Of a DNA stretch of 64,000 nt, positions 37,086 through 41,543 are shown in pieces (the first letter of the stretch is position 1; each line of letters begins with the position of its first letter). The stretch lies in the sequence record OL631482.1. One strand, 5' to 3'. The position numbers and the translations under genes were made by a program. Origin of the DNA: Escherichia phage ECML-359. The notes beneath the pieces were generated by a model. That model saw only the letters and a list, made by a program, of their open reading frames with translations, was not told where the DNA came from and made no database searches.

Positions 37086-38303
<1,218 letters not shown>

Positions 38304-38307
<4 letters not shown>

Positions 38308-38822
38308 ACACCAAGCTCCTTATAAAGTTCTTCGCGGCAGGTTTTAAGGATTTTACCAGTTTCATAAGCTGCACTTTCAGAAACATCACCAAGTGCAGCG
38401 GCAGATTGCATTTGACCATGGCGTTTAGCTGCATATTCAAAACTTTTTACTAGCTCACGAATACGTTCTTTTTCATTGTACTCTTCAATGAATTCAGGGT
38501 ATTCCCAAACTGGGCGCATCATACGATACCACTGTTGGATGGTAATATAATTACTTCCATCCAGATTAATAATTTGCGAAGGCTTAATAGCGCCCGGGGC
38601 ATAAAAAGTTACCTGTCTTACTACATCAATACCGTCCACAATAGCCCAAGCAAAATCGAAAGTTGCCTTCTTTTCAATTGGTGTACTTGCACAGGACCCT
38701 AATTTTAAGAGCTTTTGTAATGCAGGGGATTTAACACCTGAAATGTATTCAGGATTAGCTACAAAAGAATTGTCACGTAAAGTCATAGTCATTTCCTCAA
38801 ATTTTATAATCCGTAGGAGCAT
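38304..38822 (-). CDS. Hypothetical protein (pseT.x position)
   Basis: Up to 172 aa; real start probably at an internal ATG about 10-12 codons in, after a GAGGAA ribosome-binding site. Confidence 0.5.
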
Positions 38823-38953: not shown

Positions 38954-39244
38954 TCATTTGCAACGTTCCTCTTTTAGTTCAGAACGATAATAACATAACA
39001 TACCTTTTTGGTCACGTACATATCTTTTTACATCATTCATCCAAATCCTGAATTCTTGCGATGCTTCAAAAGGCATACCAACCCAGGCTTGGCCCTCAAT
39101 TACCTTCACTTCCCATTGCTGTTTGTAATCAGCCAATGCAACAGGCCAATTAGGATGAACTTGGATTGTGGGCTCCACAACGGGCTTCTGGGCACATGAA
39201 ACGAGTCCAATAGCCAAACATACTGCCATGATAGATTTCATCAT
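38954..39244 (-). CDS. Outer-membrane spanin (o-spanin lipoprotein)
   Basis: 96 aa; signal peptide with lipobox LVSC; immediately downstream of the i-spanin; corresponds to the T4 pseT.2 position. Confidence 0.75.
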   Translation of the reverse strand: MMKSIMAVCLAIGLVSCAQKPVVEPTIQVHPNWPVALADYKQQWEVKVIEGQAWVGMPFEASQEFRIWMNDVKRYVRDQKGMLCYYRSELKEERCK

Positions 39245-39594
39245 TTGGTGAGCTCCTGGAAGTCCTGGGCGAACTTATCAAAAGACTGATTAATCTGTTT
39301 TTCAACTAATTTAGGCTTCGCTGCCACAACCTTAGTACGTTTTGCATCTGCACGAAGTTTATCATTTTCCTTCTGTAAGTGTTCAACATATTCCTGGCGC
39401 TGTTGGTCAAGGAGATTAATTTGATTAACCTGGTCTTTTATTGATTGCAGATTTTTCGCATTATCTTCTGCGACTTTGGTGACTTCCGCCACCGCTGTCT
39501 TGAGATTATCCACTTTTGCTTTTAGATAGAAACCACTACCAGCAGTTACTACCAGGGCGAGCATAAGCCCTGCAGTGAGATTACTTATTTGCAT
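39241..39594 (-). CDS. Inner-membrane spanin (i-spanin)
   Basis: 117 aa; N-terminal transmembrane helix then coiled-coil-like periplasmic domain; corresponds to the T4 pseT.3 position. Confidence 0.75.
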   Translation of the reverse strand: MQISNLTAGLMLALVVTAGSGFYLKAKVDNLKTAVAEVTKVAEDNAKNLQSIKDQVNQINLLDQQRQEYVEHLQKENDKLRADAKRTKVVAAKPKLVEKQINQSFDKFAQDFQELTK

Positions 39595-40085
39595 AACTTG
39601 ATGATTACCTCAACAATATCATCCTGGGATAAACCATTCAGGAGGATGTGATTTGTACTGTCAGATGCTGAAATGCGGAACTGATTACCAACTTCATCCG
39701 CCATATCATCCTGGGTTAACACTGGGTGTTTAATTCCCAGGCGGTGTTGAAGTGTCAGGGGTTCAACCACAACATAACAAACACATCCATTGATATGCAC
39801 ATTAGGTTGGGTCTGATTGATGAACACTTCTGCATCATATTTAACCAAATGGTTCTTTAAGAAGTCAACCATTTCAGGAACAGATTCATGCAGTGCTTCT
39901 TTCCGCTCTTCTGATTTTTTATCGCGGTATTCTTTTTGTTTCGCTTTCAACTTTTTATTGGAGGCGAGTTTTTTCCGCAAGTCAGTCATGAGACCAATTT
40001 TCTTGGTCCCTTTATAGACATAAATTCCGTCATGACGGTCACCATATTCATTGACAATCATTTCATTTGAAATCAGTTGCATATC
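39585..40085 (-). CDS. alc: Alc-like protein (assigned by position and size)
   Basis: About 166 aa from the internal ATG (MDMQLISNE...), which has a GAGG ribosome-binding site; sits between the i-spanin and rnlA like T4 alc; identity not verifiable from memory. Confidence 0.55.
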   Translation of the reverse strand, partial: DMQLISNEMIVNEYGDRHDGIYVYKGTKKIGLMTDLRKKLASNKKLKAKQKEYRDKKSEERKEALHESVPEMVDFLKNHLVKYDAEVFINQTQPNVHINGCVCYVVVEPLTLQHRLGIKHPVLTQDDMADEVGNQFRISASDSTNHILLNGLSQDDIVEVIIKLCK

Positions 40086-40101
40086 CATAATATTTTCCTC
40101 A

Positions 40102-40335
40102 TTAGTAGCGGTTATAACCCCGGGGACCAAAAGAGTTGGCACCCAGGCGCTCATCTTTCTTTTTGGCTCTTGCTCTAAACCCAGAATCACCTGTTTGAGC
40201 TTTCAGTTCTTTTAACAATTTGGCCTTCAGGTCAGTAATGAAACCAATCCGGCGGTCTCCCTTGTAGACATAGATTCCATCATTTCTGTCACCATATGCC
40301 TGTGTAACTCTTTCATTTGTAATTAAGTTTAACAT
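40102..40335 (-). CDS. Small ORF paralogous to the N-terminal module of the downstream alc-like gene
   Basis: 77 aa; LITNERVTQAYGDRNDGIYVYKGDRRIGFITDLKAKL vs LISNEMIVNEYGDRHDGIYVYKGTKKIGLMTDLRKKL; early-type promoter upstream. Confidence 0.5.
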   Translation of the reverse strand: MLNLITNERVTQAYGDRNDGIYVYKGDRRIGFITDLKAKLLKELKAQTGDSGFRARAKKKDERLGANSFGPRGYNRY

Positions 40336-40406
40336 GTTTTAGTCCTCATCAGTAGTTGATGGAACCATTATGTATAGAAAGGAGGGGCTTGTACACCCCT
40401 TTTTTA

Positions 40407-41543
40407 TTATTCAGGAAGGATTACTTCCGCTTGGTAGTCCGACGGAATGTAAAGTTTATGATTTTTAAGGAAAACTTTATTGATTTGAGCAATCGTTTGT
40501 TCAGTTTCCTGTGGGCGTTGATAGGTGTTCATTAATACGGAGAACAATCCCGGGTACGGTTTGCACAACTCTTGACCTTTAATCGCGAACTCGCGACGGT
40601 CTTTCCCTGCTAACTGTTTCTGGGCATCAAGCAACAATCCAAGAGTGTTGGACAGATAATCCAGATGCGTTACAGTAAAGGCATTAACTTTTTCGCGAGC
40701 ATATGTATCGCCAGTAAACATGGCAATAACATCATCAGCGCCGCCAGCAACAACAACTTCAAACAGACGCTCATTATTATTAATGGAGTCTTTAGTATGA
40801 TGTAGAGCACAATACCATTCTGTTTTCATCTTGAACTTCTGACCGTTAGCCAGCTCATAGACGAAGCCTTCAATCTCTTTCATACCACGAACATTCTCAA
40901 TGCTCGCCGGGTCATATGCTTCAACCAGGAAAGGACGGAGCGCAGCATCTTTGAACAGTTCCTGATAAGGAATATATTCACCAGTTTCATTATGGCGAAC
41001 GTTCAGTAAAATCAGGTCACGTTCCTGGTAAGGCAAAACAATGCGGTTGGTTGGTGCAACATATTCCATATTGCATGTATAACCAGCTTCAGTGATTTCA
41101 GTTACGCGAGCCCTGAATGCACTGCGATGCTCTTGTTTAAACACCTGCAAGGATTCAGCGGCCTGTGAGCTTTTGATTGACCCTTTGGATTTAAAGGCGA
41201 TATTAGTCTGGTCCATATAAGTAGAAACCAAACTACCATCAGCTTTTGCAGTAACCAGGACAACCTCATCAAGGTTAAGGTCCATGGTCATTGGATTCTC
41301 ACCCAGATTAAAGAATTTTTCCATAGGCCGGGCGGCAATGCGAACTGGACCATTGTCATCCATTTCAAACATAATGCCACGGCACTCCAGCGCATCATCA
41401 AGAAGCCAATCACTATAGGAAGCATAGTTATAGCTAAAGATGCGGAACTTAGTTTCAAATGGAGAAACAAAATCCGTATAGAAAAACTTACCTTTATCGG
41501 ATTCGGCGCAAAGCTTCATTAAGTTATCATATAATTCAATCAT
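40407..41543 (-). CDS. rnlA: RNA ligase 1 (RnlA)
   Basis: 378 aa; FFYTDFVSPFETKFRIFSYNYASYSDWLLDDALECRGIMFEMD matches T4 Rnl1 as recalled. Confidence 0.9.
   Translation of the reverse strand: MIELYDNLMKLCAESDKGKFFYTDFVSPFETKFRIFSYNYASYSDWLLDDALECRGIMFEMDDNGPVRIAARPMEKFFNLGENPMTMDLNLDEVVLVTAKADGSLVSTYMDQTNIAFKSKGSIKSSQAAESLQVFKQEHRSAFRARVTEITEAGYTCNMEYVAPTNRIVLPYQERDLILLNVRHNETGEYIPYQELFKDAALRPFLVEAYDPASIENVRGMKEIEGFVYELANGQKFKMKTEWYCALHHTKDSINNNERLFEVVVAGGADDVIAMFTGDTYAREKVNAFTVTHLDYLSNTLGLLLDAQKQLAGKDRREFAIKGQELCKPYPGLFSVLMNTYQRPQETEQTIAQINKVFLKNHKLYIPSDYQAEVILPE

What the first reader, a model, noticed from the sequence alone, without database searches (positions are those of the whole stretch)
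39585..40335. Stand-alone small ORF duplicates the N-terminal module of the alc-like gene
The 77-aa ORF (40102-40335) and the N-terminus of the downstream roughly 166-aa alc-position protein share a motif of about 37 residues at roughly 60% identity (YGDR[NH]DGIYVYKG..IG..TDL+.KL), also visible at nucleotide level. The small ORF has its own early-type promoter, embedded in the rnlA terminator hairpin. In T4 the product of this locus modulates host RNA polymerase elongation; a separately expressed copy of just its N-terminal module could act as a competitor, decoy or regulator.
Basis: seen in the sequence. Interest (0 to 1): 0.6.

Follow-up and report, generated by a model that had tools for sequence, protein, structure and literature searches.

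The report
Truncated Alc paralogue (alcb) beside alc
A T4-like phage carries, just upstream of its host-transcription shut-off gene alc, a conserved 77-residue gene that copies only the front end of Alc; the gene is real and under selection, but public records have annotated it as "alcb" since 2010 and nobody knows what it does.

Summary
The 77-aa ORF (40335-40102, minus strand) and the 167-aa protein after it (40088-39585) align at 50% identity over 64 residues (E = 2e-17). The 167-aa protein is a full-length Alc (Pfam PF17527, E = 6.5e-49). The short ORF matches only the first ~60 positions of that profile.

The window is a Gaprivervirus (VR7/SP18 group). The short ORF is already annotated: "alcb ... 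similar to N-terminal region of JS98 Alc" in SP18, VR7ORF243c in VR7, and PHROG 17715.

What I add:
- alcb is intact in all 23 genomes compared, with dN/dS 0.12 and 18 of 26 variable sites at third codon positions.
- Divergent metagenomic relatives also carry it. They share a basic, probably disordered tail ending in R-x-G-x-N-[ST]-F-G-P...N-[KR]-[FY].
- It arose by tandem duplication of the alc leader plus about 75 codons.
- It sits behind the ancestral alc early promoter, with no promoter found before alca, so the two genes are probably co-transcribed rather than separately expressed.
- The N-module occurs nowhere outside the Alc family.

Its function is inferred only. My best guess is that it modulates or partners Alc's action on host RNA polymerase. 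Interest is modest.

The parts
40407..41543 (-). rnlA (RNA ligase 1), the gene upstream of the pair
   Evidence: 378-aa ORF. Annotated rnlA in SP18, VR7 and others at the homologous place.
40383..40400 (-). Hairpin after the rnlA stop (AGGGG-TGTACAAG-CCCCT, then CCTTTCT). A weak terminator-like element.
   Evidence: Terminator scan. RNA fold -10.2 kcal/mol but z = -0.65 against shuffles. Conserved in all 23 Gaprivervirus copies.
40367..40395 (-). Early-type sigma-70 promoter-like element TGTACA-17-CATAAT. It is the homologue of the T4 alc promoter and probably drives alcb and alca together.
   Evidence: Scan. Same position and spacing after rnlA in T4 (TTTACA-17-TATAGT), L024 (TTTACA-17-TAGTAT), L027 and L029. 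Invariant in 23 genomes. No transcript data.
40343..40355 (-). Leader copy 1, CTACTGATGAGGA, which contains the alcb Shine-Dalgarno GAGGA (40347-40343), 7 nt before the ATG
   Evidence: Read. Aligned with copy 2. T4 has catGAGGAct before alc.
40102..40335 (-). alcb: 77-aa truncated Alc paralogue (8.8 kDa, pI 10.1)
   Evidence: ORF. PF17527 E = 1.4e-10 and PHROG 17715 E = 1.6e-53 over its full length. Annotated alcb in SP18. Intact at 234 nt in 23/23 genomes, dN/dS 0.12, variable sites 5/3/18 by codon position, binomial p = 2e-4.
40192..40335 (-). alcb codons 1-48: the Alc N-module (helix 7-14, beta-hairpin 22-32, helix 33-48)
   Evidence: AF2 pLDDT above 90 for residues 11-40. It superposes on the N-terminus of a 167-aa Alc at 1.2 A over 48 columns. 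It keeps all N-module positions invariant in the 16-sequence alignment: I5, G15, D19, I21, G31, D35.
40105..40191 (-). alcb codons 49-77: basic Gly/Pro/aromatic tail with conserved R-x-G-x-N-S-F-G-P...N-R-Y at the C-terminus
   Evidence: pLDDT about 50, predicted disordered. The motif is kept in lineages only 42-50% identical overall. Within the genus codons 41-77 have dN/dS 0.046, and in the last 86 nt of the gene (index 145-230) 11 of 13 variable sites are third positions. pI 10.3-11.6.
40096..40108 (-). Leader copy 2, CTACTAATGAGGA. It holds the alcb stop codon TAA (40104-40102) and the alca Shine-Dalgarno GAGGA (40100-40096).
   Evidence: The string tGAGGAAAATATTATG is identical before alc in L027 and L029, which have no alcb.
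39585..40088 (-). alca: full-length Alc homologue, 167 aa
   Evidence: PF17527 E = 6.5e-49, PHROG 1253 E = 1.6e-73. AF2 pLDDT 92.4: N-module 8-33, long helix 34-80, alpha/beta domain 87-166. Annotated alc or alca in relatives.
39241..39594 (-). pseT.3 (Rz-like i-spanin). It overlaps the alca stop and fixes the synteny rnlA-alc-pseT.3.

Best explanation
alcb is a real protein-coding early gene.

Origin. It arose in the common ancestor of Gaprivervirus and a few metagenomic sister lineages by tandem duplication of a ~247-nt unit: the alc leader with its ribosome-binding site plus about the first 75 codons of alc.

What the copy kept and changed:
- It keeps the Alc N-terminal module (short helix, beta-hairpin, start of the long helix) with every residue that is invariant in the family.
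- It has lost the rest of the long helix and the whole C-terminal alpha/beta domain.
- Its last ~30 codons have become a basic, glycine/proline/aromatic-rich, probably disordered tail with a conserved N-[ST]-F-G-P motif and a C-terminal aromatic residue.

Expression. It lies between the ancestral alc early promoter and alca, so both proteins are most likely made from one early mRNA.

Inferred mechanism (not shown). AlcB uses the shared N-module to bind whatever that module binds in Alc. That is either the host RNA polymerase elongation complex (Alc action depends on the beta-subunit dispensable region I) or Alc itself. In doing so it modulates or assists Alc-type shut-off of transcription on unmodified-cytosine DNA. 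It is not a terminator on its own, because it lacks more than half of Alc. The basic tail would add a second contact, with nucleic acid or with a host protein.

Shown: the gene, its selection, its origin, its architecture, its distribution. Inferred: co-transcription, binding partner, direction of the effect.
For: Homology and architecture.

Selection:
- 23/23 intact copies with no indels, dN/dS 0.12, 18 of 26 variable sites at third codon positions (p = 2e-4). The tail is even more constrained, at 0.046.
- 38 distinct 77-aa sequences make up one 90% cluster, whose listed members alone were seen on well over 100 contigs.
- ORF length (77-78 aa), N-module invariants and tail motif persist in lineages where synonymous sites are saturated (pS 0.65-0.8).

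Origin by duplication:
- The leader CTACT[G/A]ATGAGGA is repeated before both genes, with a 247-nt period (244-247 nt in L024 and L026).
- The alcb stop codon lies inside the duplicated leader.

Placement behind the ancestral promoter.

Distribution:
- Present in all 33 Gaprivervirus records spanning the region and in L024, L025 and L026 (AlcA 75-77% identical).
- Absent where AlcA is 63% identical or less (L027, L029), in T4 and in Enterobacter phage MY742.

The N-module is specific to the Alc family:
- A profile search of 1.84 billion representatives finds only Alc, AlcB, one frameshifted Alc and one spurious hit.

Alc biology: it terminates transcription on dC-DNA, its mechanism is unknown, and rpoB dispensable region I is required (review PMC2988021).
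Against: - No experiment or expression data exist for alcb in any phage.
- Which part of Alc contacts RNA polymerase, DNA or another Alc molecule is unknown, so 'same partner as the N-module' has no named partner.
- A pure decoy made from the same mRNA as its target would be an odd design.
- AlcB changes about twice as fast as AlcA at the protein level between lineages (pN 0.28-0.42 against 0.14-0.18). That fits a protein acquiring a new role as well as it fits a modulator.
- The promoter and terminator calls are consensus matches only.
- One metagenomic variant (P0002) has lost the tail through a frameshift.
Confidence: 0.5

Rival explanations
1. AlcB is a neo-functionalised host-takeover protein that works independently of AlcA. 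The N-module is only a scaffold or docking piece. The conserved basic N-[ST]-F-G-P tail is the effector, binding a different host target (nucleic acid or protein).
For: - The tail is the most constrained part within the genus (dN/dS 0.046).
- Its motif is kept across lineages only 42-50% identical.
- The tail has no counterpart in Alc beyond a doubtful in-frame trace.
- AlcB evolves faster than AlcA.
Against: - All family-invariant N-module residues are also kept, so that module still does what it does in Alc.
- The tail matches no known family or motif (Pfam at E up to 1 returns only ALC).
- One variant lacks the tail.
Confidence: 0.25
2. alcb acts mainly in cis. It would be an upstream ORF whose translation sets the level or timing of alca translation, because its stop codon abuts the alca ribosome-binding site. 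The peptide itself would be unimportant.
For: The stop TAA (40104-40102) lies directly next to the alca GAGGA (40100-40096), 13 nt before the ATG. This arrangement is kept in all genomes, with TGA in the VR7 type.
Against: Selection acts on the amino-acid sequence, not merely on an open frame: dN/dS 0.12, and the motifs are conserved at saturated synonymous divergence. Tight spacing of this kind is the norm in T4-like genomes; for example alca/pseT.3 and denA/rnlA overlap.
Confidence: 0.07
3. alcb is a decaying remnant of a duplication, or just the 5' part of a longer AlcA isoform (189-201 aa, as several GenBank records annotate), and has no function of its own.
For: The alca frame stays open upstream to 40190, and several pipelines call the long form.
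Against: - There is no frameshift or stop in 23 genomes, and the third-position bias is in the alcb frame.
- In the overlap, 11 of 13 variable sites fall on the second codon position of the extended alca frame, and one genome has a stop there.
- Lineages without alcb start alc right after the same GAGGAAAATATTATG.
Confidence: 0.03

Closest known systems
Bacteriophage T4 Alc (Pfam PF17527, PHROG 1253): early protein that terminates host RNA polymerase on cytosine-containing DNA
   Same: - AlcA in the window is a full-length member at the same locus (rnlA-alc-pseT.3) behind the homologous early promoter.
- AlcB shares the N-terminal ~45-60 residues with all the invariant positions, and the predicted fold of that module.
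   Different: - AlcB lacks most of the long helix and the entire C-terminal alpha/beta domain, more than half of the protein.
- AlcB carries a basic disordered tail with its own conserved motif.
- T4 and most Tevenvirinae have a single alc and no alcb.
'alcb' of Shigella phage SP18 (SP18_gp241, YP_003934864), VR7ORF243c, PHROG 17715
   Same: This is the same gene: 95-97% DNA identity and a full-length match to the 77-position PHROG profile (E = 1.6e-53). The SP18 record already notes 'similar to N-terminal region of bacteriophage JS98 Alc'.
   Different: Nothing differs in the sequence. The records give a name only ('inhibitor of host transcription', by transfer from Alc). They offer no analysis of selection, tail motif, origin or expression. 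I found no paper that discusses the gene.
microProteins / dominant-negative truncated paralogues (e.g. Id proteins, plant LITTLE ZIPPER). Analogy from general knowledge, not tested here.
   Same: A short protein derived from a larger regulator by duplication and truncation. It keeps one module and lacks the rest.
   Different: Such proteins are defined by binding and titrating their parent or its partner, and no binding data or multimer model exists for AlcB. AlcB also has an added conserved tail and is co-expressed with its parent from one promoter.
T4 MotA C-terminal 'double-wing' DNA-binding domain (PDB 5jlt)

Membership tests
Alc family (Pfam PF17527) | Significant match to the family profile over its whole length (~165-170 aa protein) | tested here: met
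   AlcA (40088-39585): E = 6.5e-49, 166 bits against a cut-off of 25, profile 1-176 of 177.
Alc family (Pfam PF17527) | The same, applied to the 77-aa ORF: full-length architecture including the long helix and C-terminal alpha/beta domain | tested here: not met
   AlcB scores 41.5 bits, above the cut-off, but covers only profile positions 3-62 of 177. The AF2 model has no C-domain. It is a partial paralogue, not a complete Alc.
Alc family (Pfam PF17527) | Conserved genomic position between rnlA and pseT.3, behind an early promoter | tested here: met
Alc family (function) | Terminates E. coli RNA polymerase on dC-DNA but not on modified DNA, and depends on rpoB dispensable region I | not testable with these tools
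   Known for T4 Alc only (PMC2988021). Neither AlcA nor AlcB of any Gaprivervirus has been assayed.
AlcB-type short paralogue (PHROG 17715 / SP18 alcb) | 77-78 aa protein with the Alc N-module plus a tail ending R-x-[GQ]-x-N-[ST]-F-G-P-x-G-x-N-[KR]-[FY], encoded immediately upstream of alc | tested here: met
   PHROG 17715 E = 1.6e-53 over positions 1-77 of 77. Alignments A4 and A5. Synteny in L024-L026 and 23 genomes.
microProtein / dominant-negative truncated paralogue | Derived from a larger protein by duplication and truncation | tested here: met
microProtein / dominant-negative truncated paralogue | Retains the interaction module, lacks the effector module, and binds the parent protein or its partner | not testable with these tools
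   The roles of the Alc domains are unknown, and only single-chain structure prediction was available.
Intrinsic terminator with an overlapping sigma-70 early promoter | Stable GC-rich hairpin followed by a U-run; -35 and -10 hexamers with 17-nt spacing | tested here: inconclusive
   The hairpin has 6 pairs (-10.2 kcal/mol), is no better than shuffles, and its T-run is interrupted. The hexamers match 9 of 12 positions. Support comes from positional conservation in five lineages.

The most novel reading that the evidence does not exclude
AlcB is a phage-made 'microprotein' that docks through the shared N-module onto AlcA, or onto Alc's site on the RNA polymerase beta subunit, and retunes Alc's discrimination between host and phage DNA.

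It is found in Gaprivervirus and three unclassified metagenomic sister lineages. Gaprivervirus keeps alc, denB and gene 56 but has lost gene 42 (dCMP hydroxymethylase) and both glucosyltransferases, and VR7 DNA carries modified but unglycosylated cytosines (PMC6326788). Elsewhere alc and gene 42 were reported to share the same distribution (PMC2993671).

AlcB would then be the adaptation that lets an Alc system work with a different cytosine modification. It would also be a natural domain dissection of Alc, whose mechanism has been unsolved since 1993.
Probability: 0.2. Interest if true: 0.6.

Novelty: already known. Interest (0 to 1): 0.33.

Why it matters
How Alc makes RNA polymerase terminate on cytosine DNA but not on modified DNA is still unknown, and no structure is solved.

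A naturally occurring, selected protein that consists of only the Alc N-module plus a short tail is a ready-made tool. Whatever AlcB binds is a strong candidate for the N-module's partner in Alc.

Comparing alca alone with alca plus alcb would show whether the module works as a dock, a dimeriser or a competitor.

The link to a genus that has an unusual cytosine-modification gene set is suggestive, but it rests on a single evolutionary event.

For genome annotation there are three practical points. The label 'inhibitor of host transcription' on the 77-aa protein is transferred by similarity, not known. alca should start at the ATG after GAGGAAAATATT, not inside alcb. The 'PRC domain' label in one record is unsupported.

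Tried and rejected
- **Pseudogene or relic.** Rejected by codon-position bias and 23/23 intact copies.
- **N-terminally extended AlcA (189-201 aa) starting inside alcb.** Rejected: 11 of 13 variable sites fall on its second codon position, and one genome has a stop there.
- **Ongoing gene conversion between alcb and the alca 5' end.** No sign of it. DNA identity is 62-66% in every genome, whichever alca allele class is present.
- **Acquisition of alcb from another genus.** The AlcB N-module is about equally distant from its own AlcA (53%) and from other Alc proteins (50%), with 85% bootstrap for being closer to its own clade. This is uninformative, and the sequence is too short to decide. A first attempt at a tree with bootstrap timed out.
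- **'PRC domain' annotation of AlcB in PQ341120.** No Pfam support even at E up to 1.
- **A separate promoter for alca.** None found in the scan or by eye.
- **dN/dS between divergent lineages.** Synonymous sites are saturated, so only pN is usable.
- **Literature on alcb.** Nothing was found in searches on Alc, Gaprivervirus or VR7. Drivdahl & Kutter 1990 is not held in the library.
- **MAFFT placing the AlcB 'RLG' under the Alc C-domain 'HRLGI'.** The shared CGCCTGGG 8-mer is within chance expectation by my own rough estimate (no test was run), so I did not treat it as evidence of an internal deletion.

Full report
**What the window is.** On the minus strand the region reads as follows:
- nrdB (43155-41977)
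- denA (41956-41540)
- rnlA (41543-40407)
- a 77-aa ORF (40335-40102)
- a 167-aa ORF (40088-39585)
- pseT.3 (39594-39241), then pseT.2, two unknown ORFs, and pseT

Megablast of 39400-40600 finds 35 phage records at 93-99% identity. Those whose taxonomy line I read belong to genus Gaprivervirus (VR7, VR20, VR25, VR26, SP18, the TH series and others).

**Checking the observation.**
- BLASTP of the two ORFs gives 32/64 identities, E = 2e-17.
- The 167-aa protein matches Pfam ALC (PF17527) end to end at E = 6.5e-49 and PHROG 1253 at 1.6e-73.
- The 77-aa protein matches the same Pfam model over profile positions 3-62 only (E = 1.4e-10). It also matches a dedicated 77-position PHROG, 17715, over its whole length at E = 1.6e-53.
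- DNA similarity is visible through about codon 40 (64% identity) and in a 13-nt leader in front of both genes.

The similarity is highly significant, and the downstream gene is Alc.

**It is already annotated.**
- SP18 (2010) names the two genes alcb and alca. Its note on alcb reads 'similar to N-terminal region of bacteriophage JS98 Alc inhibitor of host transcription'.
- VR7 has VR7ORF243c, 'similar to bacteriophage T4 Alc'.
- Many later records call both genes 'inhibitor of host transcription'.
- I found no paper that discusses the short gene.

**Is alcb a real gene?** I extracted alcb and alca from the window and 22 other Gaprivervirus genomes.
- alcb is 234 nt in all 23, with no indel or stop.
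- Pairwise Nei-Gojobori dN/dS is 0.12. That is comparable to alca (0.10) and to the last 200 codons of rnlA (0.08).
- Variable sites fall 5/3/18 on codon positions 1/2/3 (p = 2e-4 against equal thirds).
- The unique tail (codons 41-77) is the most constrained part, at dN/dS 0.046.
- The competing reading, an alca frame open upstream to 40190 that some pipelines annotate as a 189-201-aa Alc, fails. In the overlap, 11 of 13 variable sites hit its second codon position, and one genome has a stop there.
- The 90% cluster holds 38 distinct sequences. All 15 listed members but one are 77 aa (the exception is an 88-aa call from an upstream start), and the listed members alone were seen on well over 100 contigs.

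**How far back it goes.**
- Word-indexed searches with the 77-aa protein found only the Gaprivervirus cluster.
- Looking up contigs of more distant AlcA relatives was more informative. Proteins 75-77% identical to AlcA (L024, L025, L026) are each preceded by a 77-78-aa PF17527 ORF.
- Relatives at 60-63% identity (L027, L029), T4 and Enterobacter phage MY742 have rnlA followed directly by alc.
- A profile of the five AlcB types finds just five 90% clusters in 5.8 billion proteins.
- These AlcB proteins are only 42-50% identical to the window's. They still keep the N-module invariants and a tail motif: G-F...R-x-[GQ]-[AR]-N-[ST]-F-G-P-x-G-x-N-[KR]-[FY] at the C-terminus.
- Synonymous sites between these lineages are saturated. 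AlcB changes about twice as fast as AlcA in protein sequence (pN 0.28-0.42 against 0.14-0.18).

**Origin.**
- The leader CTACTGATGAGGA (40355-40343) before alcb recurs as CTACTAATGAGGA (40108-40096) before alca. The repeat period is 247 nt, and the alcb stop codon lies inside the second leader copy.
- This points to a tandem duplication of the leader plus about 75 codons, followed by divergence.
- The tail may be a much-altered in-frame descendant of Alc residues ~63-75, but the trace is too weak to claim.
- The string tGAGGAAAATATTATG before alca is identical in lineages that never had alcb.

**Expression signals.**
- After the rnlA stop there is a 6-bp hairpin whose loop holds the -35 hexamer of TGTACA-17-CATAAT.
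- On its own this is a weak consensus match. However, the same element sits at the same place in T4 (TTTACA-17-TATAGT), L024, L027 and L029.
- It is therefore the ancestral alc early promoter. With no promoter-like or terminator-like site between alcb and alca, it most likely drives both genes.
- Both genes have GAGGA 7 nt before the ATG.
- So 'own promoter' and 'separately expressed' should be read as 'first cistron of the alc early operon'.

**Structure.**
- AlphaFold2 on a 22-sequence alignment gives AlcA a mean pLDDT of 92.4. The model has helix 8-15, a hairpin at 23-33, a 47-residue helix at 34-80, and an alpha/beta domain at 87-166.
- AlcB models as the same helix-hairpin-helix (pLDDT above 90 for residues 11-40) followed by a low-confidence tail.
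- The tail is basic (pI 10.3-11.6), rich in Gly, Pro and aromatic residues.
- A profile search of 1.84 billion representative proteins finds the module only in Alc and AlcB.
- No solved structure is related to Alc by sequence.

**Mechanism.** T4 Alc terminates transcription at many sites on cytosine DNA. Its mechanism is unknown, it has not been seen to bind DNA or RNA, and mutations in rpoB dispensable region I block it (PMC2988021).
- AlcB keeps one conserved module of this protein, adds a conserved basic tail, and is made with AlcA. My best inference is that it binds the N-module's partner (RNA polymerase or AlcA) and modulates or assists Alc action.
- It is unlikely to terminate transcription alone, since it lacks more than half of Alc.
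- I cannot tell whether it acts as competitor or helper. Co-expression from one promoter argues mildly against a simple decoy.
- The main rival is an independent new function carried by the tail.
- A purely cis-acting upstream ORF, a relic, and a long AlcA isoform are all disfavoured by the selection data.

**Context.**
- Two comparative papers note that Gaprivervirus keeps alc, denB, denA and gene 56 but lacks the hmC-forming gene 42 (PMC8056088, PMC12115623).
- The VR7 record confirms that gene 42, alpha-gt and beta-gt are absent at their syntenic sites.
- VR7 DNA is reported to carry modified but unglycosylated cytosines (PMC6326788).
- Earlier work found alc and gene 42 to share the same distribution (PMC2993671).
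- So the one named genus known to break the alc/gene 42 co-distribution is also the one with alcb. This is one evolutionary event and cannot be tested statistically, but it frames the most interesting reading.

**Verdict.** Its existence is already recorded in public annotation, and its function remains unknown. Interest is modest. Its value is as a natural dissection of Alc.

Noticed in passing
[not shown]
   Followed up: partly
window 39900-40088 (alca 5' third), compared across L001-L023: Among 23 Gapriverviruses the first ~56 codons of alca come in two allele classes: MDMQLISNEMIVNEY...GLM and MNMQLISN[DE]MIVDVY...GFL. Nucleotide diversity peaks at 0.14 there, against 0.007-0.03 in the 3' half, which suggests a recombination boundary inside alca. 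The window's allele has Leu where the other Alc and AlcB sequences aligned have Phe or Tyr (residue 33). There is no sign of alcb-to-alca gene conversion.
   Followed up: partly
L031 (VR7 NC_014792.1 14000-36000): VR7 has the order 43-imm-42.1-ORF049c-uvsX and 47-a-gt.2. Gene 42 and both glucosyltransferase genes are therefore missing at their T4 positions, while gene 56 (dCTPase) is present. VR7 DNA nevertheless has modified, unglycosylated cytosines according to PMC6326788. The modification pathway of this genus appears to be unknown.
   Followed up: partly
L017 (PQ765507), L010 (PQ341120), L007/L013/L016/L022: Annotation slips in public records. Phage 212 has its product names shifted by one gene, so AlcB is labelled 'RNA ligase'. 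EAWsc9 calls AlcB a 'PRC domain-containing protein', with no Pfam support. Several records start alca inside alcb, giving 189-201 aa.
   Followed up: yes
P0030 (Escherichia phage vB_EcoM-G28) and P0002 (ENA metagenome contig): In G28 the sequence identical to T4 Alc breaks off after about residue 48 of the 63-aa record, presumably by a frameshift (natural mutant or sequencing error). One metagenomic AlcB variant has lost its tail through a frameshift and reads into the alca start region.
   Followed up: partly
window 37987-38822: Between pseT.2 and pseT the window has a 172-aa ORF (PHROG 4482, unknown function) and a 106-aa ORF (PHROG 2364, unknown function). T4 has pseT.1 there, and SP18 has a single 118-aa ORF. 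This looks like a variable spot in the locus.
   Followed up: no
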